40,864 nt of DNA. Origin: a virus (Duplodnaviria; Caudoviricetes). The stretch covers positions 1 through 40,864 of the IMG/VR virus record IMGVR_UViG_3300022666_000082. One strand, given 5' to 3'. Positions 1,954 through 40,300 of this stretch are shown here, in pieces. The notes under the pieces are model-generated. The model ran no database searches, was not told the DNA's origin, and saw only the letters and a program-made list of their open reading frames with translations. The translations under genes and the position numbers were made by a program. Within the stretch, counting starts at the first letter, position 1; each line of letters starts with the position of its first letter.

Positions 1954-2504
1954 AGCCGATCGGCGGAATGGGCGGGGTTAAACTCGAGATTACAATCGGT
2001 GAGACCACTACGAGCGTGGTGTTCTCTCCGGACAAAGCATACATCAGGCAGGGGAACGTTAGCCCGGTGAAGAGCGAGCTTGTGACCTACAAAAAAGAAA
2101 CCATGCAGAGCGTACGTGGGCATAAGATTCAATTCACCGGGTTTTTTGAATCCGTTAACGACGATGATACATCAAAGCTGAGCACTCTTCTTGAGATCAT
2201 CCAGCTGTCGCAGAAAAACGGTGTCCCGATCACACTATGGCCGAAGCACAACGTACACGTTCCGGACTCATTTTCATATCAAGTCCTGGCAAAGGGCAAA
2301 ATCCCGGTGCGCGATATCAACGAGAAGAGAGCTGTTGCCGAGCGACTCGAGGATATCACGTTTGTAACTCAAGAGCCAGTCGCAGAGATCCAGGTATTTA
2401 CCGAGGGCAGGTATATTCCGGTGATCGGAACTCACGACGGCATGATCATCGTATTTGGCACAGATATAATCGAGATCCCGATTGAACCGGATCTCCTTCC
2501 ATAA
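1950..2504 (+). CDS. Distal tail/minor tail protein, paralog 2
   Basis: ATGA overlap; shares P..G.GG, E.VT, T..PK and D.N.KRAVA.R.E with 1513-1953. Confidence 0.55.
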   Translation: MKPIGGMGGVKLEITIGETTTSVVFSPDKAYIRQGNVSPVKSELVTYKKETMQSVRGHKIQFTGFFESVNDDDTSKLSTLLEIIQLSQKNGVPITLWPKHNVHVPDSFSYQVLAKGKIPVRDINEKRAVAERLEDITFVTQEPVAEIQVFTEGRYIPVIGTHDGMIIVFGTDIIEIPIEPDLLP

Positions 2505-2533
2505 ATCCATATTTACACAAATAAGGCGGTAGC

Positions 2534-5500: not shown

Positions 5501-6226
5501 ATTATGCCTGTCGATTGGGATACGCCAATCCCGAATGGACTGCAACTGCAGTACCCTGCGACTAACCCGACCAAGACTATGACGCTGACGAATATTGCGG
5601 CGGCATCTTCGGCTACCGGGGCGAATGACTCGATTCATCAAAATGGATTCTTGTTCGCACCTGACGAGACTCACCCCAATAGCCGGCTGGATTTCGATGA
5701 GTGGTTCAATAGCAGGTCTAATAAGGTATCTGCTACTGCGGTAAACTACGTGACGATATTCCTTGGGTATAATGAGCGTATCCCATTGAACTATACGAAG
5801 GATGTTTATAAGACGAAGTATCAGCTCTTGCTCGATATGATCCTCAACTCAACTGCCGGGGCGAATGCGAAAATCGGATTTGTCGGGCAGTTTGGACACT
5901 ATCCGGCTGATGACTATTCCGTTCAGTATGATCGGTCGCAACGCTATCAGTATGAGGCGTTCAGAGAACTGTCGCAGATGGCGCAGTATGCGGGCAAAGT
6001 ATTTTACTCTACTGCATACCCGACCTGTGATCGGATCGAGGGATTTTACGATACCACAATCGCGGAGAACCAGTCACAGATCAGTCAGTATGATACTCGT
6101 AAGACTGGGTTCCCGATCATCTATGGCGGGTCACATGTTGATTCGTTGCATCCCAAACATGAGCCGATCAGATACCAGGCGGCGGATGCGATCGCGCGTT
6201 TATTGCTGCACATGATGAGCCAATAA
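2534..6226 (+). CDS. Tail fibre/receptor-binding protein with C-terminal SGNH (GDSL-like) esterase domain
   Basis: N-terminal 10-aa AVTxxKIxxx repeats; KNLF...QIEIGTVSTAYE module typical of phage tail proteins; SGNH blocks YLGDSIS, IFLGYNE and DSLHP. Confidence 0.8.
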   Translation: MTDQYITIAIDQITEQTSPPDENYAVLLYKLSSPQATRRASFTNTRSWILENDVIATAMLQSKAVTRAKIDDGAIGSDQIEDKAVTWEKLDDGAVDDVKLADDAVTTSKIASGAVTADKIAADAMSNKVGEYLGIVRGKNLFNKADVIINKYVDAVGVLTTTASAYYVSGHIPVTAGNQLVFSHVYDSGLVYLAFYAANGAFVSGSSISLHALIVASKQLTVPANAVTMRITTVAAHLDVLQIEIGTVSTAYEAWFEGLSAEKFAPKQISGEQIADLGIGTGQIANDAVITAKIADEAVTGDKLHPDALSGVLATAGLYPYEAFNIDDLSLRPLTNLSWNKFLGSLYKVPALTTVLIQRISGRLFYAGGVAPTTYYIVVGTWVKTAASTATLTKLGEVELTWTVGATYVDFVADFSAMNILLSAGTKFFVGIRNDNGDNTGKYIKPFLQYRVNGYQNAPTIGTGELPTFSGSDSNVVFLQTAFSGSSAACGTYGATDTYMPKFSVEVLRKVDDTGYGTLKSRITRTFNLSSVIKCGRGLTEDSARYAPTKVWHTSGAVKTLLRYFVVPTGQTLNIKRICGRLKKYQNTPTAVYVHYGKWNLATAKPLTGKNVNITSQILGTAFEAGTAIDWTVTVPDADVLELVAGDYFYVAVSADQPVTNQQDGSWNYGAWDAGLNDGATKSCRNGTVFYSGNRDTDGSSLFSTSNSTAPYYGLDVEIYHGEADYKVNSGILMELIVDLAKRLTTVESATTTLNEVYLPDRFYAIADDKRPNDGGACALEIFHESIGIPLLAHEFIVDTGSYASSTGGANVYTRRDMRKNAYTPPLVSPAPTTKAGCIKTGTVKFTKGLFSSNRYEVPITITDRTILKKGYIGNNPGVLYLGDSISWEGVVFEKLKAKLDYLVAALAAGDRPGIEMLGYRIRNGGTIPTECLGSYSIRTYMSYTRGLTATCTTSDASNPSAVTWYRANGESFTFTYKSGTNGSGGVFTIMPVDWDTPIPNGLQLQYPATNPTKTMTLTNIAAASSATGANDSIHQNGFLFAPDETHPNSRLDFDEWFNSRSNKVSATAVNYVTIFLGYNERIPLNYTKDVYKTKYQLLLDMILNSTAGANAKIGFVGQFGHYPADDYSVQYDRSQRYQYEAFRELSQMAQYAGKVFYSTAYPTCDRIEGFYDTTIAENQSQISQYDTRKTGFPIIYGGSHVDSLHPKHEPIRYQAADAIARLLLHMMSQ

Positions 6227-6247
6227 TTAAGACGGCTTAAATTCCTA

Positions 6248-6275
6248 TTGACAGATTAAGTGAGGTTGATATTGT
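6248..6275 (+). promoter_or_regulatory. Sigma70-like promoter
   Basis: TTGACA-16 bp-TATTGT with TG extension. TTGACAGATTAAGT matches 13076-13089 at 13/14 positions. Confidence 0.5.
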
Positions 6276-6302
6276 GACGTCAGCCTAACGCAACGCTACT
6301 AC

Positions 6303-6342
6303 CGGGCGGATGAGCAGCAGTGTTCACCGCCCGTATTTTTTT
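6303..6342 (+). terminator. Intrinsic terminator
   Basis: CGGGCGG-a-TGAGCA/gcag/TGTTCA-CCGCCCG stem followed by T7. Confidence 0.75.
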
Positions 6343-6353
6343 GCCCCGATGAT

Positions 6354-6711
6354 CCCCCACCCTCTCCTCTCCCCCACTCCAGAGCTTTCTCTCGACATAC
6401 TCTCACGCAGAGACTCGTTTGCCGAGGGTCGGTAATTAAACGCCCATTGCATTACCAGTAAGGATAGAGAGTAGTCCGCAGGGGTGGGCGATCGGAGACA
6501 ACTTTAATTTGACATTGAATCCAAACCCAAGCACCAAGCGAACGGGTAATAGTTGGTGATTAATGGTCATACCGCTTTTTAAATGGTAGAGGAATAGGCA
6601 GCAGTTATCCATGCTGATCCGGGCGGTTATTAGGTCCATATCAGGCAGTTTCATTCCGATATTAGCTATTATCGGAATGGAGCGGATTGGTCTCATGGGA
6701 GAGGGAGGGGG
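6354..6711 (+). ncRNA. Candidate large structured non-coding RNA (about 360 nt), family unknown
   Basis: Outer helix 6354-6367/6698-6711 encloses several nested hairpins; G-U pairs mostly favour the + strand; no credible ORF. Confidence 0.4.
6652..6679. other. Candidate dif-like tyrosine-recombinase site (11-6-11)
   Basis: CATTCCGATAT-TAGCTA-TTATCGGAATG; arms are a 10/11 inverted match. Confidence 0.45.
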
Positions 6712-6895
6712 CTATGAAAACCAGACCCCCCCACCCCATACACACCCCGAGGAGCGTTTTGAGTGGTAGAGTTCGGGGAAATTCAAAGAATTTTGCATAT
6801 TTATGGAAATCCAGTTTTCCGTTTATACATAAGGCTTTATGGATGGCTTTACGTAAAAAAGTGGTAATCTTTACCACCTTTTGTCATCTTTTTTC

Positions 6896-6925
6896 TTGAC
6901 AGATAGTCTGACAAGATTATATTGT
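6896..6925 (+). promoter_or_regulatory. Promoter of the early/plasmid-maintenance operon, overlapped by an imperfect palindrome
   Basis: TTGACA-16 bp-TATATT; CTTGACAGATAGTCTGACAAG dyad at 6895-6915; GGAGG RBS before 6993. Confidence 0.65.
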
Positions 6926-6992
6926 GCACCATATAGAGTGACTCATTATTCAGCCCGCAGTTGGGACAAGCTAACGGGGCACGGAGGTAATA

Positions 6993-7589
6993 ATGAACTC
7001 TTCAAAGCAATGCAGACAGACCACTGACAAGCTCGCAAAAGCGCTCACCCAGCCGGGGACGAGTGTCGAGGAGATCTCCTCTACCCTATCCGAGAGCTAC
7101 TATCTGATGGTGACCAGGTGGACCGCAGACGGTGAGTTTGACCAAACCATCAAGATCAGGATATCGGATCACGAGCTCCCCCCTACCTATGCGAACCAGC
7201 ACGGGGCTGCCGACTATGAGATCGGAGAGAATAACGGATACAGTTCATTCGATCACATCAACTGGCATGAACTGGCTATCGCGGTTTTAACCAAGCTCGA
7301 CATGACTATCCCGGCATACATCAACGCTCTCAAGACCAAGGCGCTAGCTAAGGTCGCGGCAGACGAACGCAGACGGCAGGATGCCAATAATGCGATGATC
7401 AAGACGGTCGAGGATGCCAGACCGGTATATGAGCATTACAAGGATGCCATGAATAACTGGTTCGACAAAATCGAGGCTGAATCGGGGCAAAAGAGGCGTC
7501 AACTTCGTGGCAAGTTCAAAGATCGGTTCGGGATTCAGTACTCAACGATTCAAATAATCATAAATAACGAACGAGGTGCAAAATGCTAA
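6993..7589 (+). CDS. Hypothetical phage protein (SxSYYL...IRISDH motif)
   Basis: 198-aa ORF with a strong GGAGG RBS; first gene after the promoter. Confidence 0.8.
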   Translation: MNSSKQCRQTTDKLAKALTQPGTSVEEISSTLSESYYLMVTRWTADGEFDQTIKIRISDHELPPTYANQHGAADYEIGENNGYSSFDHINWHELAIAVLTKLDMTIPAYINALKTKALAKVAADERRRQDANNAMIKTVEDARPVYEHYKDAMNNWFDKIEAESGQKRRQLRGKFKDRFGIQYSTIQIIINNERGAKC

Positions 7590-7825: not shown

Positions 7826-8004
7826 TGTTACAAAGCAACGACGTCAAAAAGACATTTTCGCTGAGGGCCGACCAGGTTGAGTTTTTGGACCGGCTGAAGA
7901 AGAAGGGCATGTCCAACAGTGACGCTGTCCGGAGAGCCTTGGATGATTACATGAAGAACAATCCCTTGGAGGCGAGCAATGGCAAGCGCGGCAAAGGTAA
8001 TTGA
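7825..8004 (+). CDS. Ribbon-helix-helix (CopG-like) DNA-binding protein, 59 aa (not in ORF track)
   Basis: MLQSNDVKKTFSLRADQVEFLDRLKKKGMSNSDAVRRALDDYMKNNP...; beta strand KKTFSL plus S.S.AVR.AL..Y helix; TAATG coupling. Confidence 0.8.
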   Translation: MLQSNDVKKTFSLRADQVEFLDRLKKKGMSNSDAVRRALDDYMKNNPLEASNGKRGKGN

Positions 8005-8737
8005 CGCAAGAGTGGATCTATCCGGGTCCAGACGTAAGGGCGCGATCAGGGATCTGATGGCGGTGATCAACAAATATGACCTCGATTACACCGAGTTTGT
8101 GCAGCTGTCCAAGATTGCCAGGGATGAGCTCAATCTGAAAAGACCGAAGACGTACAAAACGGTAAAGCCGATCCCGAACGGGGACGAGCTGAAGCGGTTT
8201 ATGGCGGTGGTCGAAAAGCAGAGCCTCATGCATCAGATCATGATCAAGCTCTTGCTCTACATGGGCATTCGATCGGACGAGGTCATCGGAATAAAGGTCG
8301 AGGATCTGGATCTCAGCTATGATAAGGCGAGGATCCTGATGCTGAAGCGGAAAGCCGGCAGGGATAAAACCATGACCATTCCGGCGAAGCTCGCCACGCT
8401 GATCAGAGCCTACGTGGATAGCATCCCCAAAAATATTTGGCTGTTTGAGCCACCGTATAAAGAGGGGATGCCAAGGCACAGACCCTTCAGCGATCCGCGG
8501 TTCCTACGAGCCTACATTCAAAAATGGAGAAAGGAAGCCGGGGTGGGTGACGTCATGCATGCACACAACCTGCGTCATCTGCTGCTCACCTACCTGGCTG
8601 AGCTTGGCTGGACAGAACATGAACTGAAGCTCGTCTCCGGGCACGATTCCAGCACGAGCCTGGAGCGTTACCTGCACAGAAACCCAGAGACGGTTCGGCA
8701 GAGCCTGGACAAGGCTATTAATAACATGGGAGTGTGA
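7979..8737 (+). CDS. Tyrosine recombinase (probable multimer resolvase)
   Basis: Catalytic motifs MGIRSDE, K, HAHNLRH, SGH and LERY; no N-terminal arm-binding domain. Confidence 0.9.
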   Translation: MASAAKVIDARVDLSGSRRKGAIRDLMAVINKYDLDYTEFVQLSKIARDELNLKRPKTYKTVKPIPNGDELKRFMAVVEKQSLMHQIMIKLLLYMGIRSDEVIGIKVEDLDLSYDKARILMLKRKAGRDKTMTIPAKLATLIRAYVDSIPKNIWLFEPPYKEGMPRHRPFSDPRFLRAYIQKWRKEAGVGDVMHAHNLRHLLLTYLAELGWTEHELKLVSGHDSSTSLERYLHRNPETVRQSLDKAINNMGV

Positions 8738-9395: not shown

Positions 9396-9646
9396 TACCT
9401 GAGGCTACCGGATCTGATGCTCCGCTAAGCCAGCAGATCAAAAAATTCAAGGATGGGGCGAACGCTCCGGGGATAAACGAGCTTCCTACGGAGGAGATGC
9501 GCAAGATCACCCATTGGATCAAGCTGGAGAACTGGGAATTTCTCAAGATGAAATCGGCGGCGTTGAGCGTGGAAGCCGGCAAAAAGGTGACTATCAATAT
9601 GCTGCTTGACCAGGCAGTGGATCTCCTGAAAGAGAAGCTGGGATAA
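9380..9646 (+). CDS. Small ParA partner (ParG/omega-like centromere-binding protein)
   Basis: 88 aa directly after parA; flexible N-terminus and RHH-like C-terminus (KITHWI...TINMLLDQAVDLL). Confidence 0.7.
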   Translation: MPKRLIPEATGSDAPLSQQIKKFKDGANAPGINELPTEEMRKITHWIKLENWEFLKMKSAALSVEAGKKVTINMLLDQAVDLLKEKLG

Positions 9647-9682
9647 TGCCATCAATACATATTTCCATAAATACATATTTAC
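9642..9682 (+). repeat. parS-like array of 8-bp units CATA-N4
   Basis: GATAATGC CATCAATA CATATTTC CATAAATA CATATTTA at the end of the par operon. Confidence 0.65.
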
Positions 9683-9751: not shown

Positions 9752-10783
9752 ATGAACGATAACGCCATGCACGGACCATCCAAGGACGTGCTGATCATAC
9801 TGGATGATAAGCGGATCATCAGCTATCGACCAAGGCTCAACAGAGAGACCGGCAGTTTGACAGCAACTGTGCTGCTGTGCCAGGCTATGTATTGGGCTAT
9901 GCATTCAGCCAACCCTTTTTACAAATTCATGCAGCCATGCAAGCACGATCAATATCATCCCGGTGACTCATGGGTCGAAGAGCTTGGCATGACCAGGACG
10001 GAATTCGAGACAGCGCTCAAGCGGATCGGACAGAAGCTAAGCTCAAAATCAACCGGATATGATCAGGATGCGTTCATCTGGTACTGGACGGATATCAGCC
10101 GGATGACATGGTTTCAGATTAATTGGAAGAGGGTCAACGAAGCTGTTGAACGAGCATATTCTGACGTAATGCAGGAATCCTGCAATAGGTACTGCGGGAT
10201 TCCTGAAATACATAGATCCACAAAGTGGAAATACGAAATGCAGGATTCCTGCAATAGTAATAATGAACAAAGAGTAACTACAGAGAGTACACAAAGAGTA
10301 TCATCATCATCTGATGCAGCACCACTTCCGGAGAAAGCACAGGATGAGGATGATGATCTCAATCGAATTTTACTGGATCTCGGACTGAGCCGGGAACAGG
10401 CTAAGGATGCCAGGGACCGGCATGGGGATCTGCTTTGCCATGAGAAGGCTAAGGAATTGATCCGGAGCCTGGATAAGATCAAGAATTTGGGAGTCTACTC
10501 CAGGACTACCTTCGGGAAGGCGGAGCTATATCCACCGGCACAGGCGGAGGCGTTACGGCAAAGAAGAGTGAAGAAAGAAGAGAGAAGAAAGGAACTGGAT
10601 TCCAGCCTTCGCGGTAATGACGAGGTTCATGAGATCCAGATGCCGGAAATGAGCCAGGATGAGACAAGGCTTTTCTTGGAATCGATAAAGGGGAATAATC
10701 TGCTTATGCAGCGATGGCAGCGAAATCAAACGAATAGTGCGATCATCCGACTGGCTATGGCTGAGTGGAAGCGGGCTAAATAA
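9752..10783 (+). CDS. Replication initiator (winged-HTH, lambda O/replisome-organiser-like)
   Basis: ATVLLCQAMYW...SWVEELGMTRTEFETAL N-terminal domain; internal palindromic iterons followed by a T/S-rich linker; start set at ATG 9752 after a G-rich RBS. Confidence 0.75.
   Translation: MNDNAMHGPSKDVLIILDDKRIISYRPRLNRETGSLTATVLLCQAMYWAMHSANPFYKFMQPCKHDQYHPGDSWVEELGMTRTEFETALKRIGQKLSSKSTGYDQDAFIWYWTDISRMTWFQINWKRVNEAVERAYSDVMQESCNRYCGIPEIHRSTKWKYEMQDSCNSNNEQRVTTESTQRVSSSSDAAPLPEKAQDEDDDLNRILLDLGLSREQAKDARDRHGDLLCHEKAKELIRSLDKIKNLGVYSRTTFGKAELYPPAQAEALRQRRVKKEERRKELDSSLRGNDEVHEIQMPEMSQDETRLFLESIKGNNLLMQRWQRNQTNSAIIRLAMAEWKRAK
10168..10257. repeat. Intragenic iterons (putative origin inside rep)
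   Basis: TGCAGGAWTCCTGCA at 10170 and 10239, variant at 10193, different palindrome at 10217; centres exactly 23 bp apart. Confidence 0.7.
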
Positions 10784-11212: not shown

Positions 11213-11276
11213 TGTTATATGCCATTGGTATTGACAAAAGTCTTGACTAATAGACAGATCGTCAGAAAAAGGAAAC

Positions 11277-11464
11277 GAACATGAACGAACACGCACGTCA
11301 GGTTGGTGACCCCTGCCTGAGAATCCTGGATCCGTGAGGACAGGATCGCCGTGCGTGGCGAGTTCAGTTCTCAGGCTTTATATAAATTAGCCTGAGTGGA
11401 GATTTAGGTCACTCGGTTTGTGGCCGCGTTAGGTGCCCCGGAGAGATCCGGGGCTCTTTTTTTA
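11277..11464 (+). ncRNA. Candidate structured ncRNA (three-way junction plus hairpins) ending in a terminator
   Basis: CACGCACG/CGTGCGTG closes a junction that carries a GTGA-tetraloop arm; further hairpins; upstream TTGACA/TTGACT; terminal GAGA-loop terminator. Confidence 0.55.
11435..11464 (+). terminator. Intrinsic terminator
   Basis: GCCCCGGA-GAGA-TCCGGGGC followed by a T-run. Confidence 0.85.
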
Positions 11465-11631
11465 TGGGGCAAAAGGGAATCCATCCGGGATAGTGATATG
11501 CTGGAAGACGGGCTAAAGCCAGTGTTACGCTTTCAGTAATACCATAAAAACATATTTCCATAAATACAGCGAAAGGATTTGACTTTGTTTCGCGACCCTT
11601 AAACGTAGAGACATAAATAAACTACATAAGG

Positions 11632-12196: not shown

Positions 12197-12369
12197 CTGT
12201 CTTACTGTCTTATTCACTATATAACTATACTATTTAATAATAAGATACCAATAAGACAGTTGTAAGACAGTCAAGACAGTCAAGACAGTAAGACAGAACG
12301 AAAAAGCTTCTGTCTTGTTATAAGTGATTGTGTTATCAATAACTAAAAGGCAGTAAGACAGTAAGACAG
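12197..12369. repeat. AAGACAG iteron cluster; putative replication origin
   Basis: Ten exact copies (7 direct, 3 inverted) around AT-rich tracts. Confidence 0.75.
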
Positions 12370-12409
12370 CAATCTGCCATGTTCAGGGTAAATACGAGGA
12401 GAAAAAAAA

Positions 12410-22347: not shown

Positions 22348-23262
22348 ATGGCTGACATCCTGCTGATCAACATGGACAAGACAACGTATCCGAATTTGGC
22401 GTTGGAAAAGATCCGCATCTTCCATGAGAATAGGGGAGACGTGGTGCACCGAGATCTGCCGATCATGGCGGGGACGGTTAGCCGGATTTACGTGAGCGTA
22501 GTGTTTACAGATAACGCTCAAGAGGCTGAAGACTGGATGTTTTGGGATTCAGATAAGTGCCGGGTTGACATTGGCGGTACCGGATACGATATCAAGAAAC
22601 GTCTTCCGGAAGAGATAGAGAGTATTGTGCCCAGGATAAACTACGGATTCGTGACAAGGGGATGCAACCGGAGCTGTGCCTTTTGCGTTGTTCATGAAAA
22701 AGAAGGCGAGGTAAAGCAGGTGGCGAGCCTTGAAGAAATATGGGACGGGAAGGCACGGGACGTTCAGCTTATGGACAACAACGTTTTATTTGATCGAGAT
22801 GCTTTTCTGCAAACCTGCCTTTATGCTCAGAAACACAAGATCCGAATCGACTGGAACCAGGGACTTGATCATCGGCTGTTGGATGATGAGATCTGTGAGA
22901 TATTGGCGAGAACACCACACAAGCGATATCGGTTTGCGTTCGATGACAGTTCGCAGTATGGCAGTGTCGAAAAAGCGATCAATCTCCTGGATAAATATCA
23001 GATCCACTTTAGCACCTGGTACGTATTAGCCGGGTATGGTATGGGCGCAGACGCGGACAAGATCGAGACATTATTCCGGGACGCATTGGCAAGATGCTAC
23101 TATTTGAAGGGTCGAAATCAACGAGCATACGTCATGCGATATGGTGACAGCCGATACCGCAGAGAGTATATCCGACTGGCACAATGGACAGCGATGAGCC
23201 GGTTCTTTGCTAAGTTCAGCTATGATGAGTTTTGCAGAATAAAGATGGGGGAAACGATATGA
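22348..23262 (+). CDS. Radical SAM protein
   Basis: TRGCNRSCAFC (CxxxCxxC); NLALEKI, LMDNN and DWNQGLD.RL motifs. Confidence 0.88.
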   Translation: MADILLINMDKTTYPNLALEKIRIFHENRGDVVHRDLPIMAGTVSRIYVSVVFTDNAQEAEDWMFWDSDKCRVDIGGTGYDIKKRLPEEIESIVPRINYGFVTRGCNRSCAFCVVHEKEGEVKQVASLEEIWDGKARDVQLMDNNVLFDRDAFLQTCLYAQKHKIRIDWNQGLDHRLLDDEICEILARTPHKRYRFAFDDSSQYGSVEKAINLLDKYQIHFSTWYVLAGYGMGADADKIETLFRDALARCYYLKGRNQRAYVMRYGDSRYRREYIRLAQWTAMSRFFAKFSYDEFCRIKMGETI

Positions 23263-24842
23263 CGATGTTTGTAGCATCACCGGCAGAGCAGAGGATAGTT
23301 AAATACCGCACGGATGATCCGGATATGGTGACAGCCATGTGTATAATGTACTGCCGGGATATACTGGACTGGATGCCTAAGCTGCATCAGATTTACTGGA
23401 TGGACGAGATGCTGCACCATGAGCTGACGCTCTTGTGTTCGGTTCCCAGGGGCGGGAAAACGATGTGCACGGAGGCAGTCGATATCTATGAGACCTGTAT
23501 GTATCCGGGCGAGGACCTAAGGATTTACGCTCCCAAACTCGACCAGTGCAGAGAAACGCTCAAATATCACTACGATTGGATCGATGGGTCGCAGATCCTC
23601 AAAGCCTTTTTACGCAAGCGCAACGGGAAGCCTGTCTTTTCGAGTGAGACCTATGAATTCATGAACCGATCCAACGCCAAGTGCTATACCATCATGGGGA
23701 AGATGGAAGGGCACAACACGTCTATCGCGCGGGTCGAGGAGTTCGACGACTGGACGTGGGAGAAATTTGGCGATGATATCATGCGCCGTATGGCAGCAGA
23801 GATCAAAAACAAGCGTGAGAAGCGGATCCGCATTACCGGCACGATCATGGGGCGGGAGAACATCTACCGGTTGCTCAAAGACCCGGTGCTTTCCACGATG
23901 TATAAGAACCTAATGCATCATCCTGTTTGGGGTATCATTGACGTTGACACGTTATTACAGATTCCCGGTGTGCTGAACAAGCAAATCGTCGAGACCCAAC
24001 GGGCGAGCATGAGCCCGGACGAGTGGAAGCGGTCTATGAAACTGCAGTTTGCCGAGTCCAAAAACTATATCTGGGGTAAGTACATCCGTGCGGGAATGAA
24101 GCGGAGCATGCTTTGGGGGCTTTACCCCGTTCCATACATCAGAGGAAACAGGTATGATAAGATGCCGGGTGAGACGGTCGGATGTGGGTTTGACTGCGGG
24201 CATGCCGGGCAGAAGAGCACATCATCGGTATTTTCGCTGCAAATTGTGGGCGAGTATAGCACCGGATTGAGAAAGTACCAGCGGTGGTTAAATGGGTTTA
24301 ACTGGGCACCGGACGTGGACCCGGTACTATTGCAGAACGAAGTCTGTGACATCCTCGAGTATTACCGGGTAGATGGGGGATACGGTGATGCGCTTAAACA
24401 CGATATCATCTCTGCGATCAACCGCATTGCCTACTATCGCGGGCTGACGCATAAGAATCTGGATGACTGTCCGGAGAACACTCCGGCAAATTGGGACAAA
24501 TGGTATATCTCGCCCATGTGGAACAACGACAAGGGCAAGCACGAGATGTACTCGCTCCTGCAGCACGGGATCCATACGGGAGATTTATCGTTGCCCTATG
24601 CCGATCCAAAGGATGATTGTCCGGAGGCGGTGGCGCTGAGACGGCTAACGGTGCAGCTGCAGGGAATCAGACAGACTATGACCAAGGGCAGCTATCCGGC
24701 ATATCATGCTGACAATGCCAATATCGGGGATGATGATACGGACGCATTGGGAATGTGCGTCCGGTGGCTAACAGTAAACAGTAACCAAAGAGTCAATTTC
24801 GACAACGTCAAAATGGTGGGAGGACGGACTTTTGCGTATTAG
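23259..24842 (+). CDS. terL: Terminase large subunit
   Basis: PRGGKT Walker A, RVEEFD Walker B, ITGT motif, GFDCG and DDDTDA nuclease residues; start at ATG 23259. Confidence 0.82.
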   Translation: MTMFVASPAEQRIVKYRTDDPDMVTAMCIMYCRDILDWMPKLHQIYWMDEMLHHELTLLCSVPRGGKTMCTEAVDIYETCMYPGEDLRIYAPKLDQCRETLKYHYDWIDGSQILKAFLRKRNGKPVFSSETYEFMNRSNAKCYTIMGKMEGHNTSIARVEEFDDWTWEKFGDDIMRRMAAEIKNKREKRIRITGTIMGRENIYRLLKDPVLSTMYKNLMHHPVWGIIDVDTLLQIPGVLNKQIVETQRASMSPDEWKRSMKLQFAESKNYIWGKYIRAGMKRSMLWGLYPVPYIRGNRYDKMPGETVGCGFDCGHAGQKSTSSVFSLQIVGEYSTGLRKYQRWLNGFNWAPDVDPVLLQNEVCDILEYYRVDGGYGDALKHDIISAINRIAYYRGLTHKNLDDCPENTPANWDKWYISPMWNNDKGKHEMYSLLQHGIHTGDLSLPYADPKDDCPEAVALRRLTVQLQGIRQTMTKGSYPAYHADNANIGDDDTDALGMCVRWLTVNSNQRVNFDNVKMVGGRTFAY

Positions 24843-25887
24843 GACAGTAAAGGCATTAGATCAATTTTTTGCCCATTGTGTGGGGATCAATGGCGCGAGG
24901 GAATCGACAGCCAGGATGTATCGGCATCAGCTCAAGAAGTTTTTTAAACTTATCAGTGTGGACGAGTATCTTCCTGATTTATCAGAGGGCGACATTGCCG
25001 GAGTGCTGACCGCTATGCAGAAACGTGGCATGGCGATGAATACGAGAAGGATCATGGCGACTGCGCTGAGGCAGTTTTATGCGTGGCTATCCGAAACTTA
25101 CAAGCAGCCCAATCCGGCTAAGAACCTCAAGGCGATCAGGGAGTACATCAAGCATCCGGAAGTGCTGCGGCTGGATGAGGTCGAGCGAATGATCCTGACC
25201 TGTGGAATGGACACGTTTGAACAAAAGCGCAATGCGGCAATCATCTGTGTCTTGGCAGACACCGGGATCCGGGTCAGCGAGCTGTGTGCCCTGAAGGTGC
25301 GGGACGTGGTGATGGAGGAGAAGCAGTTTGTGATGACTGTCCCGGCAACAAAAGGCAATAAAACCAGGTATGTGCCGTTCTGCTATCTCGAAGAGAAGGC
25401 AATCGTTGCCGAGGCATTTACCGCCTACTATATGGATGCGAGGTTTCGTCGGGGACTGACAAGCGATGATCATCTCTTCCAAAGGACCACGATATACTAT
25501 CGAAAAGCGCCTCAGGGTGGGTATTATGAGGGAGCATCTCGAAACATAGATCCGGGGCCGATGAGCCATAAATCGGTATGGCTGATGCTGAAGCGGATAG
25601 CTGAACAAGCAAAGGTAGAGCGAGCTGCGAACCCGCACTCGTTTCGCCACTTCTATGGCACTTACCTGGCGCTCTCCGGAGTTCCTGTCACCACCATACA
25701 AATGCGGATGGGGCATAGCAGTCTGGAGCGAACCCAGATCTATCTGCACACGGCGGACATGATCAAAGGTGACAGCGCGAAAGACAGTCCTCTGTCTAAG
25801 ACAAAGGTAAAAACCAGCTACGGTGTGAAGGTGCTTAAAATGCTATTAGAGAACGACAAAGAGCAGAAAAGAAAGCGAAAGCCATAG
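24832..25887 (+). CDS. Tyrosine recombinase (XerC/D-like, with core-binding domain)
   Basis: TGIRVSEL, TKG, PHSFRHFYGT, MGH and TQIY; N-terminal ST...Y...L..F. Confidence 0.92.
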   Translation: MRIRTVKALDQFFAHCVGINGARESTARMYRHQLKKFFKLISVDEYLPDLSEGDIAGVLTAMQKRGMAMNTRRIMATALRQFYAWLSETYKQPNPAKNLKAIREYIKHPEVLRLDEVERMILTCGMDTFEQKRNAAIICVLADTGIRVSELCALKVRDVVMEEKQFVMTVPATKGNKTRYVPFCYLEEKAIVAEAFTAYYMDARFRRGLTSDDHLFQRTTIYYRKAPQGGYYEGASRNIDPGPMSHKSVWLMLKRIAEQAKVERAANPHSFRHFYGTYLALSGVPVTTIQMRMGHSSLERTQIYLHTADMIKGDSAKDSPLSKTKVKTSYGVKVLKMLLENDKEQKRKRKP

Positions 25888-25926
25888 TTCCATCTAAACA
25901 TATTTACATTTTTATGGCAGATTGTC

Positions 25927-25956
25927 TTGACATGCTAAAGGGGATTGTGCTATGAT
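25927..25956 (+). promoter_or_regulatory. Sigma70-like promoter upstream of the TerS-like gene
   Basis: TTGACA-N18-TATGAT with TG extension; preceded by a CATA-N4 array at 25883-25914. Confidence 0.65.
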
Positions 25957-25965
25957 GTCCCGTGT

Positions 25966-26901
25966 ATGGATAAGCAAACTGAAACGATGGTCGACAATAA
26001 GCACTTCTGGTGCTCCGAGTGCAGTCATTACTGGAATACGAATGACTTCTCCGAGCCAAGCCACGCATCTATCGATTTACCTGATACCGGAGCTGACGAT
26101 CCACTCAACTACTATTCACGCTGTCCGCTATGCCATGACTGGGCGCGGGCAGTCCCACATTACTATGCCAATCTGAAAAAGATGCATCCGACAGGCCCAC
26201 GCACGGAAGCCGGGAAGCGGAGATCTTCGCTTAACGGAATGACACACGGGCTTTATGCGCAGCAGAAAAACCTCCTTGCTCCCGCACATGGCAAATATTC
26301 CATATGCGAGAGCTGTGATGAGGCGGAGCGGTGCAGAGACGGAGCTCTGAAGTACTGCCCGTATCGGGTCGATAATATGCTTCGTTTTGTCGCAGCGTAT
26401 GAGAATGGCGACGTCGAGGCGATGCGCACCTTTGCCGGGCTAACCCACGCGAGAATGGCGGACATGCTTACACGCTCCATGGACGCGGTAGATAAAACGG
26501 GAACGGAGCTGATCGCTCCTAAAGTTTACAAGGGCGTAATCGTCAGTTATGAAGACGAGGACGGCAAAGAGCACATTGTCATGGAGCACACCGCTCATCC
26601 GCTGATCACTAAGATCATCGATATGATGGCGGCCATGGGACTCACCAGTGACCAGATGAAAATGAATCCTAGCAAGACGGAGAGCGATCCCAATCCTGAA
26701 GGAAACTTGAAAGCGCCCGCGGATCCGATATCCTTCATGAACGAGATGAAAGAGATGGTGAAAATCGTTACCCAAGGCGGGATCGATATTGCCAAGGCAA
26801 TGCGCGGCGAAGATCCGGACAGCGAATCCGAAAGCGGAGATGATGCCGACGTAGAGTTCCCCGACGAGCCCAACCCCTTCCCCAACAGCATAAAACCATA
26901 A
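25966..26901 (+). CDS. Terminase small subunit-like protein with N-terminal zinc ribbon
   Basis: TGPRTEAGKRRSSLNGMTHGLY motif typical of TerS-like proteins; HPLI..I...M..MGLT C-terminal motif; CxxC pairs. Confidence 0.6.
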   Translation: MDKQTETMVDNKHFWCSECSHYWNTNDFSEPSHASIDLPDTGADDPLNYYSRCPLCHDWARAVPHYYANLKKMHPTGPRTEAGKRRSSLNGMTHGLYAQQKNLLAPAHGKYSICESCDEAERCRDGALKYCPYRVDNMLRFVAAYENGDVEAMRTFAGLTHARMADMLTRSMDAVDKTGTELIAPKVYKGVIVSYEDEDGKEHIVMEHTAHPLITKIIDMMAAMGLTSDQMKMNPSKTESDPNPEGNLKAPADPISFMNEMKEMVKIVTQGGIDIAKAMRGEDPDSESESGDDADVEFPDEPNPFPNSIKP

Positions 26902-26962
26902 AGACATAAATACAGCCATAGTGTGTATATAGTGTAATGCGTAAGGCAAAGGAGTAAGCCTT

Positions 26963-27733
26963 ATGGACTCGATCATCACTTGGATGGGCGGGAAGAAGGC
27001 GTTGCGCGAGACTATTGTCAAACTCATTCCTGAGAAGATCAGCGGCTATATCGAGCCGTTTGGCGGAGCGGGATGGGTGCTATTACATCGAGAGCGTCAT
27101 GCGCGGCTCGAGGTTTGGAACGATCTCAACAGCGACCTGTACAATATGTTCATGCAAGTGAAGTTTCATCCGGACGAGGTTTCAAAGGAGCTGGAGCTAT
27201 TGCCGCACAGTCGGCAGCTGTTTCACACCCTTTTGAAGATCCCCGGAGTGACCGAGATCCAGAGAGCGGCACGATTCATTTACCTGATCCGTCATAGTTT
27301 TGGCGCTTTAGGAAGCAGCTTTGGAACCGGCAAGACCACGTCCGGCGGTGGGGTTCGCATGAGCCTGGCAATGGAGAGAGTCATGCCGCTGGCAAAACGC
27401 CTGGATAAAGTGACGGTTGAGAACCTGGACTACCGGGAGTGCATCTCCAAATATGACGCTGAGACCAACTTCTTTTACCTCGATCCACCGTATAGCCAAG
27501 GGCATGAATACAAAAATGCCAAGGGCTTTGACCATGAGGAGCTGAAGAATATCCTGAGCCAAACATCCGGTAGGTGGCTATTGTCATATGACGACAGTCC
27601 GCTGATCAGGAGTTTGTACGAGGGATACAGGATAATCCCGGTTAGCCGCAAGCAGGGCATCACCGGAACGGACAAAGACTATCCTGAGCTGATCATCATG
27701 AACTATGGGGAGGACGGATGCAAAATTCGATAA
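26963..27733 (+). CDS. DNA adenine methyltransferase (D12/Dam class), copy 1
   Basis: WMGGK, IEPFGGAG, NDLN, YLDPPY and LSY. Confidence 0.92.
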   Translation: MDSIITWMGGKKALRETIVKLIPEKISGYIEPFGGAGWVLLHRERHARLEVWNDLNSDLYNMFMQVKFHPDEVSKELELLPHSRQLFHTLLKIPGVTEIQRAARFIYLIRHSFGALGSSFGTGKTTSGGGVRMSLAMERVMPLAKRLDKVTVENLDYRECISKYDAETNFFYLDPPYSQGHEYKNAKGFDHEELKNILSQTSGRWLLSYDDSPLIRSLYEGYRIIPVSRKQGITGTDKDYPELIIMNYGEDGCKIR

Positions 27734-28509
27734 TCTCCTGGGTGGGCGGTAAACGGCTCTTGAGATCCAAGATCATCCCTTTGATCCCTCCACACGCTAC
27801 GTTTGTGGAAGTGTTTGGCGGAGCGGGGTGGGTGCTCTTTGGCAAGTCCCCGGACAAGAAGGCATGGGGCTGCACCGGAAAGGCTATGCCCTATACCGAG
27901 GTCTATAATGATATCAATGGTGAGCTGGTCAACTTTTGGCGTCAGGTAAAACACCATCCGGAGAGTCTGGCGGCAGAGATCAACCGGGAGCTCGTCTCAC
28001 GCGAGGTCTTTGATGAGTACATGAAAACAGAGCCGACAACGGAGCTGGGCAGAGCAGTACGATTCTACTACCTTTTGGGATGTTCCTACGGGAGCCAATC
28101 CAAGAATTTCTGCATTAACCGGGGTTACCGCTATTTGCCATTACGCAATCCTGACAAGCTGCTAAAAGCCAGTGAGCGACTCAGGCACGTGATCATCGAG
28201 AGGAAAAAGTGGCAAGACCTGATCAGCCGCTACGACTCCGAGACCACGCTGTTTTACCTCGATCCCCCGTACTATGACCATGAACGACTTTATAAACGAG
28301 ATGATGCCGAGGCGTTTAACGAGCATGAAGAGCTGGCTCGAGCACTCATGAAGATTAAGGGGAAGTTCATTCTCTCCTATAACGATTGTAAAGAAATAAG
28401 GCACCTGTATGCCGGAGCGCAGATAACAGAAGTAACTGCGACATATTCGGTGAGCGGGAAATGGTCGACTGAGACCGAACTAATAATAACTCAAAGGAGT
28501 TTACCATGA
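27718..28509 (+). CDS. DNA adenine methyltransferase (D12/Dam class), copy 2
   Basis: WVGGK, VEVFGGAG, NDIN, YLDPPY and LSYND. Confidence 0.92.
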   Translation: MQNSIISWVGGKRLLRSKIIPLIPPHATFVEVFGGAGWVLFGKSPDKKAWGCTGKAMPYTEVYNDINGELVNFWRQVKHHPESLAAEINRELVSREVFDEYMKTEPTTELGRAVRFYYLLGCSYGSQSKNFCINRGYRYLPLRNPDKLLKASERLRHVIIERKKWQDLISRYDSETTLFYLDPPYYDHERLYKRDDAEAFNEHEELARALMKIKGKFILSYNDCKEIRHLYAGAQITEVTATYSVSGKWSTETELIITQRSLP

Positions 28510-37365: not shown

Positions 37366-40300
37366 TGGCTAATAGCAGCATCTCTCTCAGTATAGATCTC
37401 ACTCTCTTCGCAGAAGGGCTGAAGACCGCTCTTCGCATGGGAGAGACGTTTAGCAAGAACTTGAATGACGTGCTCTCCGGACGCGTCAAACTCGATACCA
37501 AAGAACTGGATAAGGCGCTGGCTGATTTTCAAACGAAGGTCAGCCAGGCTGATACCAGTATCGATATAGACAGCACTAGGGCGGTCGAAGGAGTCCAGCG
37601 CATTACTCAGGAGACTGAGAAAGCGGCTGAAAAGACCAAGAGCAAAGTCCTCAGCATCCGCGACAGCCTGGCAATGTGGGGACTAGCGATCAATAGCGTG
37701 GAGCGGGCGTTTAACATCGCCACCCGTGCGATGGACGCACTGCTCACTCCACAACTGGAAGCGGAGGCAGCGCAAGCGGCATTAGGCGCAAGCCTGCTTC
37801 AAACAGGTATCTATAGTGAATCCTTAGTCGAAAAACTAACACAGCAATCAGAGGCGTTCCAGGATCTCACTAAATACGAAGATGATCTCACTTTGAGTAA
37901 CACAGCTTTGATGCAAAACATCGGGCAAATGAGCGACACCGTTCTCGTCAAAGCACAAAAAGCTGCTATTGGTATATCTGCCGCATATCGACTGGATCTG
38001 GCTACAGCAATGGAAGCGGTGGGTAAAGCAGCTGCAGGGAACTTCGCAACGCTGGGGAGATATGGCATCATTCTGGACGACACCGGCACGGCTGCCGAGA
38101 AGTTCGCCCAGCTTCTACAGATCGGAATCGACAAATTCCCTCTGGCTGAAGCGGAAGCAAAAACAGGGGCCGGGGCGATCGAGCAGTTTAAAAATGTATG
38201 GGGTGACATGCTCGAGACGATTGGTCAAATAGCTATACCTGTGCTTGGTGGTTTCATAAAAGTGCTTAAACCTATCGTTGAGTGGTTTGCTAATCTGACC
38301 CCTCTCGCAAAAGGGTTAGTGGTTTTGATGCCTTTACTAACTGCAACATGGATAAAGCTGTCAATTGCTGCCGGCGGAGCTGCAATATCAACCGGAAGTT
38401 TTACTGCTGCGATATCGGCTGCATCGGTAGCCGTAGAAAGTTTCCTTGCAACCATCGGCCCAGTTGGATGGGTTTTGATGGGTGTATCTGTCGCGGTTGG
38501 GGTATGGGCGGCTAACTCTGATAAGGCGAAAAAATCCACTGATGATTTAACGGATTCTACCCAGGAGATGACTAAGGAGGGCAAAAAGCAGGTCGAGAAC
38601 TATGATCAGCTTGTGGGAAGATTAAAAGCCTTGCGATCTGAAGAATCCAACTCTGCGACTGCAAAGCGGGAGCTGAAACGAGTTGCCCAGGAACTCAATG
38701 ACAACTATGGCACGTGGATCGGCAACATAAACCTCGAAGCAGGGGCATGGGATAAGGTGGCATCGTCTCTATCAACAGCCCGTGAAAAGCTCATTCAATA
38801 TCAAATGAGCCAGGCGCTTGAAGCGACCTATAGAGATCAGTTGACAAGGGTCGTCAAGCTGCGCCTCGAACTGCAGAATTTAACCGGTGAAGGTCTAGAC
38901 CTAATGGAAAAGGTCAACCGCGGCATTGGCGCTGCTCCTCCGGACAGCCTTCTGGGTGGTCCCGGAGACTACTACGATATCCAGGCAGATAAGATCGCCA
39001 AGATCAGAAACGAGCTCAAAGAAGCCGAAAAAGATCTGGCAGAGTATCAGCGGCGAGCAAATTCCGCTGCGGCCAGCTTAGGTTTGCAAAGCACCGACGA
39101 AAGCAACATGGGCGGAACCGGTGTTGACAGCGCATCAGGAACCGGGGCTGTCGCCAATAGCTATGAATCGCTATTATCATCGATTGAAAACTACCGCAAT
39201 AAGGTGAACCAAGAACTGGCTGAGACTGGGGCAAGCCCGTTTAGCATTGCCATCATGAGAGCCGAGAACGACGCGCAAACCCTTCGAGACAACCTCGATA
39301 AGGCGCTGAGTGATCAGACCATAACAGCTACTCAACACAGCAAGATGATGGAGGTGGTGAACTCTGCAGCGTTTGAAAAACAGCTCAGCATCGCAAAAAC
39401 CTACTATCTTGCCGGCAATGAGCAGATGAACCAGTATCATGATCAGCGACTGAATGAGATGCGGGATCAGCACACAAAAGAAACTTCTGAGCTGAACAGC
39501 AAATACACGGATGCCATCACCAGTCTGGATCAGTACTGGGAAGGCATGGGGCTGACCGAAGAGCAGTATCAGCTGCAGCGTAAAGAGCTGACATTAAAAT
39601 GGAACGCTGATCAGGAGTCGCTCAAAGACCGTCATTTAAAGGCAATGAACGATCTCGATGCGGTTATGCGAGCGGAAGCGATCAACAAAGAGCGCGAAGG
39701 CTTTGAGAAGTCCAGAGCGGAGCTCGATGCATATCTTGAAAAGCTGAAGACTTGGAAGGAGCTTGGGCTCAACGTTAGCACGGAAATGGCTGCGACATGG
39801 GACAAGTATCACGAGCTCTTAAAGAGCCAGATGGAGAAATCAAAACAGGCATTGGCAGACGCCGAGTCCGGCAAAACGCAGGTGACAGCGGAAGAGCTGG
39901 CATTGCGTAAACTACTCTATGACGGAGACCTCGCAGCCTACCTGCAAGCACTTGCCAATCGCAAAGAGGCTGAACTGAGGTCGCAGACAGACATCCAGAC
40001 TGAATGGCGCAGAACGCATCAATTAGCTGTAAGCCTTTGGAGCGGGATGGTGGACGGGCTGAAGAGCCTGTGGGACACCATGACGGATAAGACCATGACC
40101 GGGGCTGAGAAATGGAAGAAGGCGCTTTCCACGGTCGCCAACAGTTGGTACTCCACTCTGGGCAATATGCTGGCTGAGCAGGTGCGGAATATGCTTTACT
40201 CTCTGGCGGTGCATCAGACAACTGAAACAGCTAAAACCGCAGCTACAGCAGTTGGTGAAACAACGAGGCTGGCGCTATTCAAACAGAGCCTCTTGGGGCA

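What the first reader, a model, noticed from the sequence alone, without database searches (positions are those of the whole stretch)
6354..6711. Candidate novel ~360-nt multi-domain structured RNA
Seen: a fully nested set of helices. Outer CCCCCACCCTCTCC/GGAGAGGGAGGGGG (13/14). Arm 6389-6397/6420-6428. Arm CGCCCATT/GGTGGGCG (6441-6490) with inner ATTAC/GTAGT. GAGAC/GTCTC (6495/6690) closes four hairpins (6510-6569, 6570-6588, 6612-6647, 6652-6679). Most wobble pairs are G-U on +. I cannot match it to RNase P, tmRNA, SRP or intron families. Established: large phage ncRNAs exist (GOLLD, ROOL). Inference: a new member of that class, or an ssDNA structure near the genome end.
Basis: partly seen in the sequence, partly recalled or inferred. 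Interest (0 to 1): 0.72.

Follow-up and report, generated by a model that had tools for sequence, protein, structure and literature searches.

The report
Conserved phage DNA signal, likely packaging
The stretch is a non-coding element kept in four related phages as short fixed motifs at fixed spacings, not as one shared fold, so it is likely a protein-bound DNA signal (likely where genome packaging starts) rather than a new large RNA.

Summary
The helices are in the sequence as described, and there is no Rfam match. The fold is not outstanding: z about -3, 7th of 82 tiles in this genome, and +0.3 once the outer helix and one palindrome are left out. The window is a complete 40.7-kb phage-plasmid. 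Three relatives carry a homologous element at the same place, between the last tail gene and the tyrosine recombinase gene. They lack the outer helix's 5' arm and the GAGAC/GTCTC helix, and their folds score z -2.2 to +1.0. What is kept, at 6438-6795: an invariant 11-mer, [AG]TTCC...GGAA inverted repeats 104-106 bp apart, a G-run/AAAA/C-run/AT-tract module, and spacers that change by about whole helical turns. That points to a double-stranded DNA protein-binding site (about 0.7). My best guess is the packaging-start region (0.38); a recombinase site is close behind (0.30). A structured RNA stays possible (0.17), because local hairpins recur and pair counts exceed shuffles. No read-end or transcript data were available. 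A much stronger RNA candidate lies at 11276-11465 (z about -5 in three of three genomes).

The parts
6354..6367 (+).
   Evidence: I1; also D2, 76% like the C-run at 6728-6748; not aligned in homologues; longest Watson-Crick helix of the upstream 100 nt with the G-run is 8 bp here against 5, 3 and 4 bp
6438..6448 (+). Motif A, AAACGCCCATT: invariant, asymmetric, one exact copy per genome
   Evidence: 11/11 invariant in 4 of 4; one exact copy in window, G002, G003 and G006, none within 1 mismatch in G004
6569..6595 (.). Inverted-repeat site 1: ATACC-N17-GGAAT here; GTTCC-N16/17-GGAAC in relatives
6652..6679 (.). Inverted-repeat site 2: 28-bp palindrome with 11-6-11 geometry; both arms in G002 and G003, right arm only in G006
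   Evidence: (I2)
6697..6720 (+). G-run ending in GGG[GT]GCT..[GC]AAAA (motif D, 6707-6720)
   Evidence: 4 of 4 full homologues; a similar run in distant G004 and in a run-X3 contig
6725..6748 (+). C-run; one of only two 12-mers in the genome with at least 10 G or 10 C
   Evidence: kept in G002, G003 and G004, weak in G006
6779..6795 (+). A/T tract after the C-run
   Evidence: present in 5 of 5 family members printed
6248..6343 (+). Neighbour: promoter-like site, short conserved unit and terminator-like hairpin closing the tail operon
6896..6925 (+). Neighbour: early promoter-like site, 11/12 consensus
7979..8737 (+). Short tyrosine recombinase with R-K-H-R-H-Y residues present; candidate partner in the rival model
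   Evidence: Pfam PF00589 E 7e-23; XerA-like PDB hits; residues read
23232..24842 (+). Large terminase, Terminase_6N-like; candidate partner in the best model
   Evidence: 42-60% identical in G002-G006; no PHROG, Pfam or NCBIfam hit
12198..12375 (.). Converging AAGACAG repeats around an AT-rich core: likely the primase-helicase origin, so the element is unlikely to be the main origin
   Evidence: same repeats seen in G002, G003 and G006

Best explanation
The element is a non-coding stretch (about 6438-6795) conserved in four related phages, and it likely works as double-stranded DNA, likely as the site where terminase starts packaging the genome. Inferred: a multimeric protein, probably small terminase, binds the [AG]TTCC half-sites, which sit 2, 8 and 10 turns apart on one face of the helix. 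Large terminase would cut in or beside the G-run/C-run module, and headful packaging would follow. The palindromes fold on paper because they are inverted binding sites. The outer helix would be a by-product of one G-run lying between two C-runs. Confidence that it acts as DNA at all is about 0.7; confidence in packaging specifically is lower.
For: (1) Spacing. First to last half-site is 105, 104, 104 and 106 bp with unrelated sequence between. The flanking spacers differ by -9, +11, -10, -13 and -11 bp, close to whole turns (P about 0.01 against uniform lengths; post hoc, 5 differences, two anchors set by eye, one +2 difference left out as too small). (2) All four half-sites begin with A in the window and with G in G002 and G003, a concerted change across two separate palindromes. 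(3) The 125-nt core folds on both strands and with DNA parameters as well (z -2.1 to -5.5). (4) Motif A is invariant while its pairing partner is lost in G006. (5) The G-run/C-run/AT module is the most deeply kept part, including in G004 (E 2, weak). The same order of features flanks the record ends of cos phages HK97 and D3, and an A-tract just past the cut is part of the HK97 TerS site (PMC11331095, passages). (6) In an unrelated phage (L247) a similar C-run/AT tract lies about 280 bp before a gene pair whose second member has a terminase-type Walker A (read by eye). (7) In G004 a pair of [AG]TTCC-N18-GGAAC sites 76 bp apart lies just upstream of the small-terminase-like gene. (8) A plasmid prophage with a 377-bp intergenic pac region made of ordered motifs is known: phiBB-1 (PMC11008901, passages). 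(9) The origin lies elsewhere, and no reading frame is kept.
Against: No read-end data were available. The element lies about 17 kb from the terminase genes, while the cos sites of HK97, D3 and PSA adjoin terS. An unbiased alignment test of the likeness to cos junctions was weak: the element ranked 46, 62, 58, 2 and 21 of about 350-440 loci for HK97, 14, 116, 121, 11 and 12 for D3, and showed no enrichment for PSA. The three query phages were picked from memory, and they are cos phages. L247 was selected by a pattern holding a G-run and was 1 of 4 non-family hits. Only 1 of 5 matches to a C-run/AT pattern in 246 non-family loci was that case. A similar G/C-run also follows a primase gene in phage IndiRoo (E 5). 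G004 lacks motif A. The small-terminase label for 25945-26901 rests on position and a recalled motif, not a family hit.
Confidence: 0.38

Rival explanations
1. It is the target (resolution or attachment site) of the neighbouring tyrosine recombinase: one palindrome is the crossover core, and the other half-sites and motif A are accessory sites that set the direction of recombination, resolving dimers of the plasmid prophage. This can also be true together with a packaging role for the G/C module.
For: It lies upstream of the recombinase gene in 4 of 4 full homologues and in G004, 0.4-1.8 kb away. Site 2 has the 11-6-11 layout of dif and archaeal XerA sites (PMC5357621, passages). A core plus accessory copies of the same motif is how TnpI/IRS works (PMC2847244, passages). 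The recombinase keeps its catalytic residues, and the genome encodes ParA and a Rep. The helical phasing fits equally well.
Against: No one palindrome is complete in all four: site 2 lacks its left arm in G006 (4/10) and site 1 is imperfect in the window. The conserved bases are the outer ones; the bases next to the spacer vary. G004 keeps the recombinase (30%) but shows no such palindrome upstream of it. The model does not explain the G-run/C-run module. No integrated copy was found to test for att ends.
Confidence: 0.3
2. It is a structured non-coding RNA of about 280-300 nt starting near motif A, with a conserved hairpin cluster but not the reader's closing helix.
For: The CGCCCATT helix is 7/8 and 5/8 in G003 and G002. 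6562-6686 folds at z -2.6, -3.1, -4.7 and -1.5 on +. Each genome has some hairpin between the two sites. In the X8 variant 6 of 10 listed changes fall in unpaired positions, 1 keeps a pair as G-U and 1 adds a pair.
Against: The structure was derived from one of the four rows, and the tool warns that related sequences can beat such shuffles. Whole-element z is -1.67, -0.64, -2.22 and +1.0, against -5.1, -5.4 and -5.3 for the unit at 11276-11465 in the same genomes. The X8 variant breaks 2 pairs and shows 0 compensatory changes. No promoter or terminator for it is shared: a terminator-like hairpin lies just upstream in the window, and a divergent promoter in G002 and G003. No Rfam match.
Confidence: 0.17
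3. It is a single-strand DNA or R-loop priming signal (a secondary origin): the hairpins fold when a strand is displaced, or a transcript of the G-rich strand stays hybridised and primes synthesis.
For: Hairpin cluster with DNA z -2.1 to -5.5 on both strands. The phage encodes its own primase. Four-G-run patterns overlap the module in G002 and G003 (+) and the window (-). Likeness to RNA-primed origins is recalled, not tested.
Against: A separate repeat origin is present in 4 of 4. Four-G-run patterns occur 3-8 times per genome, on different strands here, and not in the G006 or G004 element. No shared upstream promoter.
Confidence: 0.1

Closest known systems
pac region of Borrelia phage phiBB-1/cp32 (PMC11008901, passages read)
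   Same: Plasmid prophage; intergenic region of 350-380 bp made of short motifs in a fixed order.
   Different: There the cut site was mapped by sequencing and the region was shown to drive packaging; here neither was done. No sequence comparison with it was made.
cos regions of HK97 and D3 (records fetched)
   Same: G-run, short AAAA spacer, C-rich stretch, then an A/T tract.
   Different: Those adjoin terS and an HNH gene. Here the terminase is Terminase_6N-like and 17 kb away, and the alignment test gives only weak enrichment.
Tyrosine-recombinase sites: dif/XerA, cer/psi, TnpI-IRS (PMC5357621, PMC2847244, passages read)
   Same: 11-6-11 inverted repeat, extra copies of the half-site nearby, recombinase gene next door.
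   Different: No core is complete in all homologues; the outer rather than inner bases are conserved; there is an added G/C-run module.
GOLLD and ROOL large phage RNAs
   Same: Intergenic, in a phage, several hundred nt, no reading frame.
   Different: No Rfam match; the long-range helices are not conserved; folding is weak in homologues.

Membership tests
Large structured phage ncRNA (GOLLD/ROOL class) | Match to a described RNA family | tested here: not met
   0 matches at gathering score in the whole window; 4 matches at E 3-10, all far below gathering
Large structured phage ncRNA (GOLLD/ROOL class) | Long-range helices kept in homologues | tested here: not met
   outer arm absent in 3 of 3; GAGAC/GTCTC 2/5, 2/5, 0/5
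Large structured phage ncRNA (GOLLD/ROOL class) | Covariation of base pairs | tested here: inconclusive
   score above shuffles (2/500) on only 4 related sequences, with a structure taken from one of them; 0 compensatory changes in the X8 variant
Large structured phage ncRNA (GOLLD/ROOL class) | Discrete abundant transcript | not testable with these tools
   only assembled contigs were served
pac/cos packaging site | Fixed cut or coverage step in virion DNA | not testable with these tools
   no raw reads; the records are assembly circles or fragments
pac/cos packaging site | One copy per genome, oriented, kept across the terminase family | tested here: met
   single copy, same orientation relative to the recombinase in 4 of 4; partial in G004
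pac/cos packaging site | In or next to the small terminase gene (usual, not universal) | tested here: not met
   about 17-19 kb away
pac/cos packaging site | Likeness to mapped cut regions | tested here: inconclusive
   ranks 2-62 (HK97), 11-121 (D3) and 42-262 (PSA) of about 350-440 loci
pac/cos packaging site | Terminase binding and packaging of a plasmid that carries it | not testable with these tools
   bench test
Tyrosine-recombinase site (dif/res/attP) | Inverted 11-13 bp arms around a 6-8 bp spacer | tested here: met
   at least one such palindrome in 4 of 4
Tyrosine-recombinase site (dif/res/attP) | The same core complete in all homologues | tested here: not met
   site 2 is 4/10 in G006; site 1 is 4/5 in the window
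Tyrosine-recombinase site (dif/res/attP) | Intact recombinase encoded nearby | tested here: met
Tyrosine-recombinase site (dif/res/attP) | Recombination at the site, or duplicated core at prophage ends | not testable with these tools
   no integrated copy reached; the G001 contig is the same phage plus a second terminase region
Primary replication origin | Repeat cluster with an AT-rich core | tested here: not met
   the only 6-mer cluster in the window is at 12.0-12.5 kb
Protein-coding gene (ORF 6436-6696, - strand) | Reading frame kept in homologues | tested here: not met
   stops in that frame in 3 of 3; no PHROG or Pfam hit

The most novel reading that the evidence does not exclude
The element is a new roughly 300-nt structured RNA (motif A to the G-run) of an undescribed phage-plasmid family, with a variable hairpin cluster and a G-rich 3' end, possibly acting in packaging or priming.
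Probability: 0.17. Interest if true: 0.65.

Novelty: new member of a known kind. Interest (0 to 1): 0.3.

Why it matters
If it is the packaging site, it marks the chromosome end of an undescribed phage-plasmid family and gives a case of a multi-part packaging signal far from the terminase genes. If it is the recombinase site, it gives the target of a short tyrosine recombinase. Both are useful, and neither is surprising. The case also shows how one G-run between two C-runs plus inverted protein-binding sites can mimic a closed multi-domain RNA. The more promising RNA lead is the unit at 11276-11465.

Tried and rejected
BLASTN of 6230-6995 against phages and plasmids: no match at E <= 1. Three short G/C-module queries gave only E 1-5 matches. 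ARAGORN: 0 genes. IMG/VR scans: recombinase alone, 0 of 55 candidates confirmed; two window-exact patterns, 0; looser patterns gave 2, 6 and 9 loci, of which 2, 2 and 3 were family members, and the other 10 showed no profile match and no shared protein. Rep-based scans kept the best 80 of 83, 444 and 125 loci; of 241 loci only L002, L003 and the identical L162 held the element. Expression: no RNA holder listed. The wastewater runs labelled RNA are mostly flagged probably DNA and are contigs only; X4 covers 6073-6296 and not the element, which proves nothing. Laying four runs on L003 gave nothing over the element. Host: the identical contig sits in a MAG titled Geobacter, but it carries two terminase genes, and 0 of 150 other genomes of that phylum had the terminase. 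The host is undetermined, and a paper search on a guessed host gave nothing usable (listing only). Ends of linear G004 and G005 fall in a repeat beside an RT-like gene and say nothing about termini. A protelomerase target was rejected because the central 6 bp are not palindromic in G002 and G003. parS was rejected because G006 keeps the element with no ParA hit (record 85% complete). A G-quadruplex role is not supported. The scan's earlier findings held nothing. Paper searches (listings only unless cited) showed no description of this element or family. That library lacks most subscription papers, and no supplements were read.

Full report
Setting. The window is a complete circular phage record with a 127-nt terminal repeat. 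It encodes a tail fibre ending at 6226, a short tyrosine recombinase (7979-8737), ParA, an O-like Rep, a CI-like repressor, a primase, a second XerD-like recombinase, two adenine methyltransferases, and a Mu-like portal and head. The large terminase is 23232-24842. I read it as a phage-plasmid. The finding lies in the gap between the tail operon and the early genes.

Observation. Every helix named is present. The + strand folds at z -3.62 and the - strand at -2.83; a re-run gave -2.72 and -3.16. Against fixed tiles of the same genome it ranks 7th of 82, with 6 tiles at z <= -3 (82 of 113 tiles ran). The signal comes from the outer helix and the 6652-6679 palindrome: 6436-6650 alone scores +0.28. 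Rfam and ARAGORN find nothing.

Homologues. Using Rep and terminase alignments I reached related records. nhmmer found the element in L003/G003 (E 5e-9) and L002/G002 (E 5e-8) among 241 loci. In G006 two weak hits at the right distance led to a clear copy at the same position, later recovered by pattern. G004, more distant, keeps only the 3' module (E 2). A contig in run X8 covers 6354-6611 with 14 differences, and one in run X3 shares 6708-6731 and 6933-6995. So the test rests on 4 full copies, two of them close to each other, plus fragments.

What is not kept. The longest Watson-Crick helix between the upstream 100 nt and the G-run is 8 bp in the window and 5, 3 and 4 bp in the others; with G-U allowed it is 10, 9, 7 and 10, so G-U helices do not discriminate here. 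GAGAC/GTCTC pairs 2/5, 2/5 and 0/5. The CGCCCATT helix pairs 7/8, 5/8 and 3/8. Whole-element z on + is -1.67, -0.64, -2.22 and +1.0. The 86-codon - strand ORF has stops in 3 of 3 homologues.

What is kept. (a) AAACGCCCATT, invariant and single-copy. (b) Two inverted-repeat sites of the form [AG]T[TA]CC-N16/17-GGAA[CT]; in G006 the second has only its right arm. (c) A G-run ending in GCT..AAAA, then a C-run and an A/T tract; this holds the densest G or C run of the genome in the window, G002, G003 and G006. (d) Spacing: 104-106 bp from first to last half-site, 131-142 bp from motif A to site 1, and 20-44 bp from site 2 to the G-run. The five larger differences lie within 0.5-2.5 bp of one helical turn (P about 0.01, post hoc). 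All four half-sites start with A in the window and with G in G002 and G003. Pairing inside two separate hairpins would not couple those changes; recognition by one protein would (inference).

Results that favour RNA or single-stranded folding. The 125-nt core folds well in all four, on both strands and with RNA or DNA parameters, and each genome has a hairpin of its own between the two sites. In X8, 6 of 10 listed changes are at unpaired positions, 2 break pairs, 1 keeps a pair as G-U, 1 adds a pair, and none is compensatory. These results keep the RNA reading at about 0.17. As a yardstick, the unit at 11276-11465 scores z -5.1, -5.4 and -5.3 with the same predicted topology in three genomes; the finding does not behave like that.

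Mechanism. The main origin appears to be elsewhere: converging AAGACAG repeats at 12.2-12.4 kb recur in G002, G003 and G006. Two cis sites remain that such a phage needs: a packaging start and a recombinase site. For packaging: the G-run/AAAA/C-run/AT order seen at the HK97 and D3 record ends (PMC11331095 passages), a similar tract before terminase-like genes in unrelated L247, the same kind of palindrome pair before the small-terminase-like gene in G004, and the phiBB-1 precedent (PMC11008901 passages). Against it: the distance from the terminase genes and a weak alignment test. For recombination: synteny with an intact recombinase, 11-6-11 geometry (PMC5357621 passages) and a core-plus-accessory layout (PMC2847244 passages). 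Against it: no core is complete in all copies, and the G/C module is unexplained. I put packaging at 0.38 and recombination at 0.30; both may hold for different parts. Protein binding, cutting and recombination are all inferred; none was shown.

Papers. Passages were read from PMC13595911 (herpesvirus pac1 has G-rich tracts around a T-rich core, an analogy only), PMC11008901, PMC11260489, PMC2847244, PMC5357621, PMC11331095 and PMC11447400; the last and PMC11260489 added nothing specific. No supplements were read. Eight searches showed no description of this element. The labels 'P4-like origin' and 'small-terminase-like' are recalled likenesses, not family hits.

Verdict. The element is real and conserved, but the closed 360-nt RNA is not supported. 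It is most likely a new member of a known kind of phage cis-acting DNA site. Interest 0.3.

Noticed in passing
window 11276-11465 (+); G002 9759-9945; G003 776-959: Strong candidate structured non-coding RNA of about 190 nt ending in a terminator. z is -5.1, -5.4 and -5.3 (5' domain -3.7 to -4.8). The predicted three-way-junction topology is the same in 3 of 3, with different stem sequences. No Rfam match at gathering score; not found in G004 or G006. It deserves its own follow-up.
   Followed up: partly
window 6248-6343 (+); L003 5916-6008; L002 1420-1512: Promoter-like site, conserved AGCCTAACGC.AACGCT leader and terminator hairpin with different stems and a shared CAGCA loop (z -3.5 to -4.7): a candidate small RNA. 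Its CCTAACGC is complementary to GCGTTAGG in the 11.3-kb unit in 3 of 3 genomes, but duplex energies are only modestly better than shuffles (33, 86 and 15 of 500).
   Followed up: partly
window 6925-6995; L003 7263-7400 (-); L002 3270-3330 and 4170-4280 (-): Conserved, foldable 5' leader of early genes, with several variants in contigs of runs X3 and X5. The early cassette sits after the element in the window and G006, but before it and reversed in G002, G003 and G004.
   Followed up: no
window 2492-2526, 9642-9682, 11535-11575, 25883-25907, 26889-26915: Repeated CATAAATACATATTTAC-like motif in intergenic gaps (families D2, D4, D5); likely a regulatory site.
   Followed up: no
window 10164-10257 and 12198-12375: Two apparent origins: palindromic repeats inside the O-like rep gene, and AAGACAG repeats beside the repressor and primase genes.
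   Followed up: partly
window 24832-28509: A second XerD-like recombinase and two tandem D12 adenine methyltransferases lie among the terminase genes; the recombinase is kept in G002-G006.
   Followed up: no
G004 38172-38275 and record ends: A pair of [AG]TTCC-N18-GGAAC direct repeats before the small-terminase-like gene. The record ends fall in a repeat beside an RT-like gene, suggesting a diversity-generating retroelement (read by eye).
   Followed up: no
window 6031-6296: The tail-fibre 3' end and the downstream promoter are 99% identical in contigs of runs X3, X4 and X8 that do not continue into the element: possibly a shared tail module.
   Followed up: no
L282 (Microcystis phage vB_MaeS-yong1) 27755-28200: The only annotated phage with a related terminase (29%) also has a non-coding gap before a XerD-like gene, with a G-run and GTTCCAC repeats.
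   Followed up: partly
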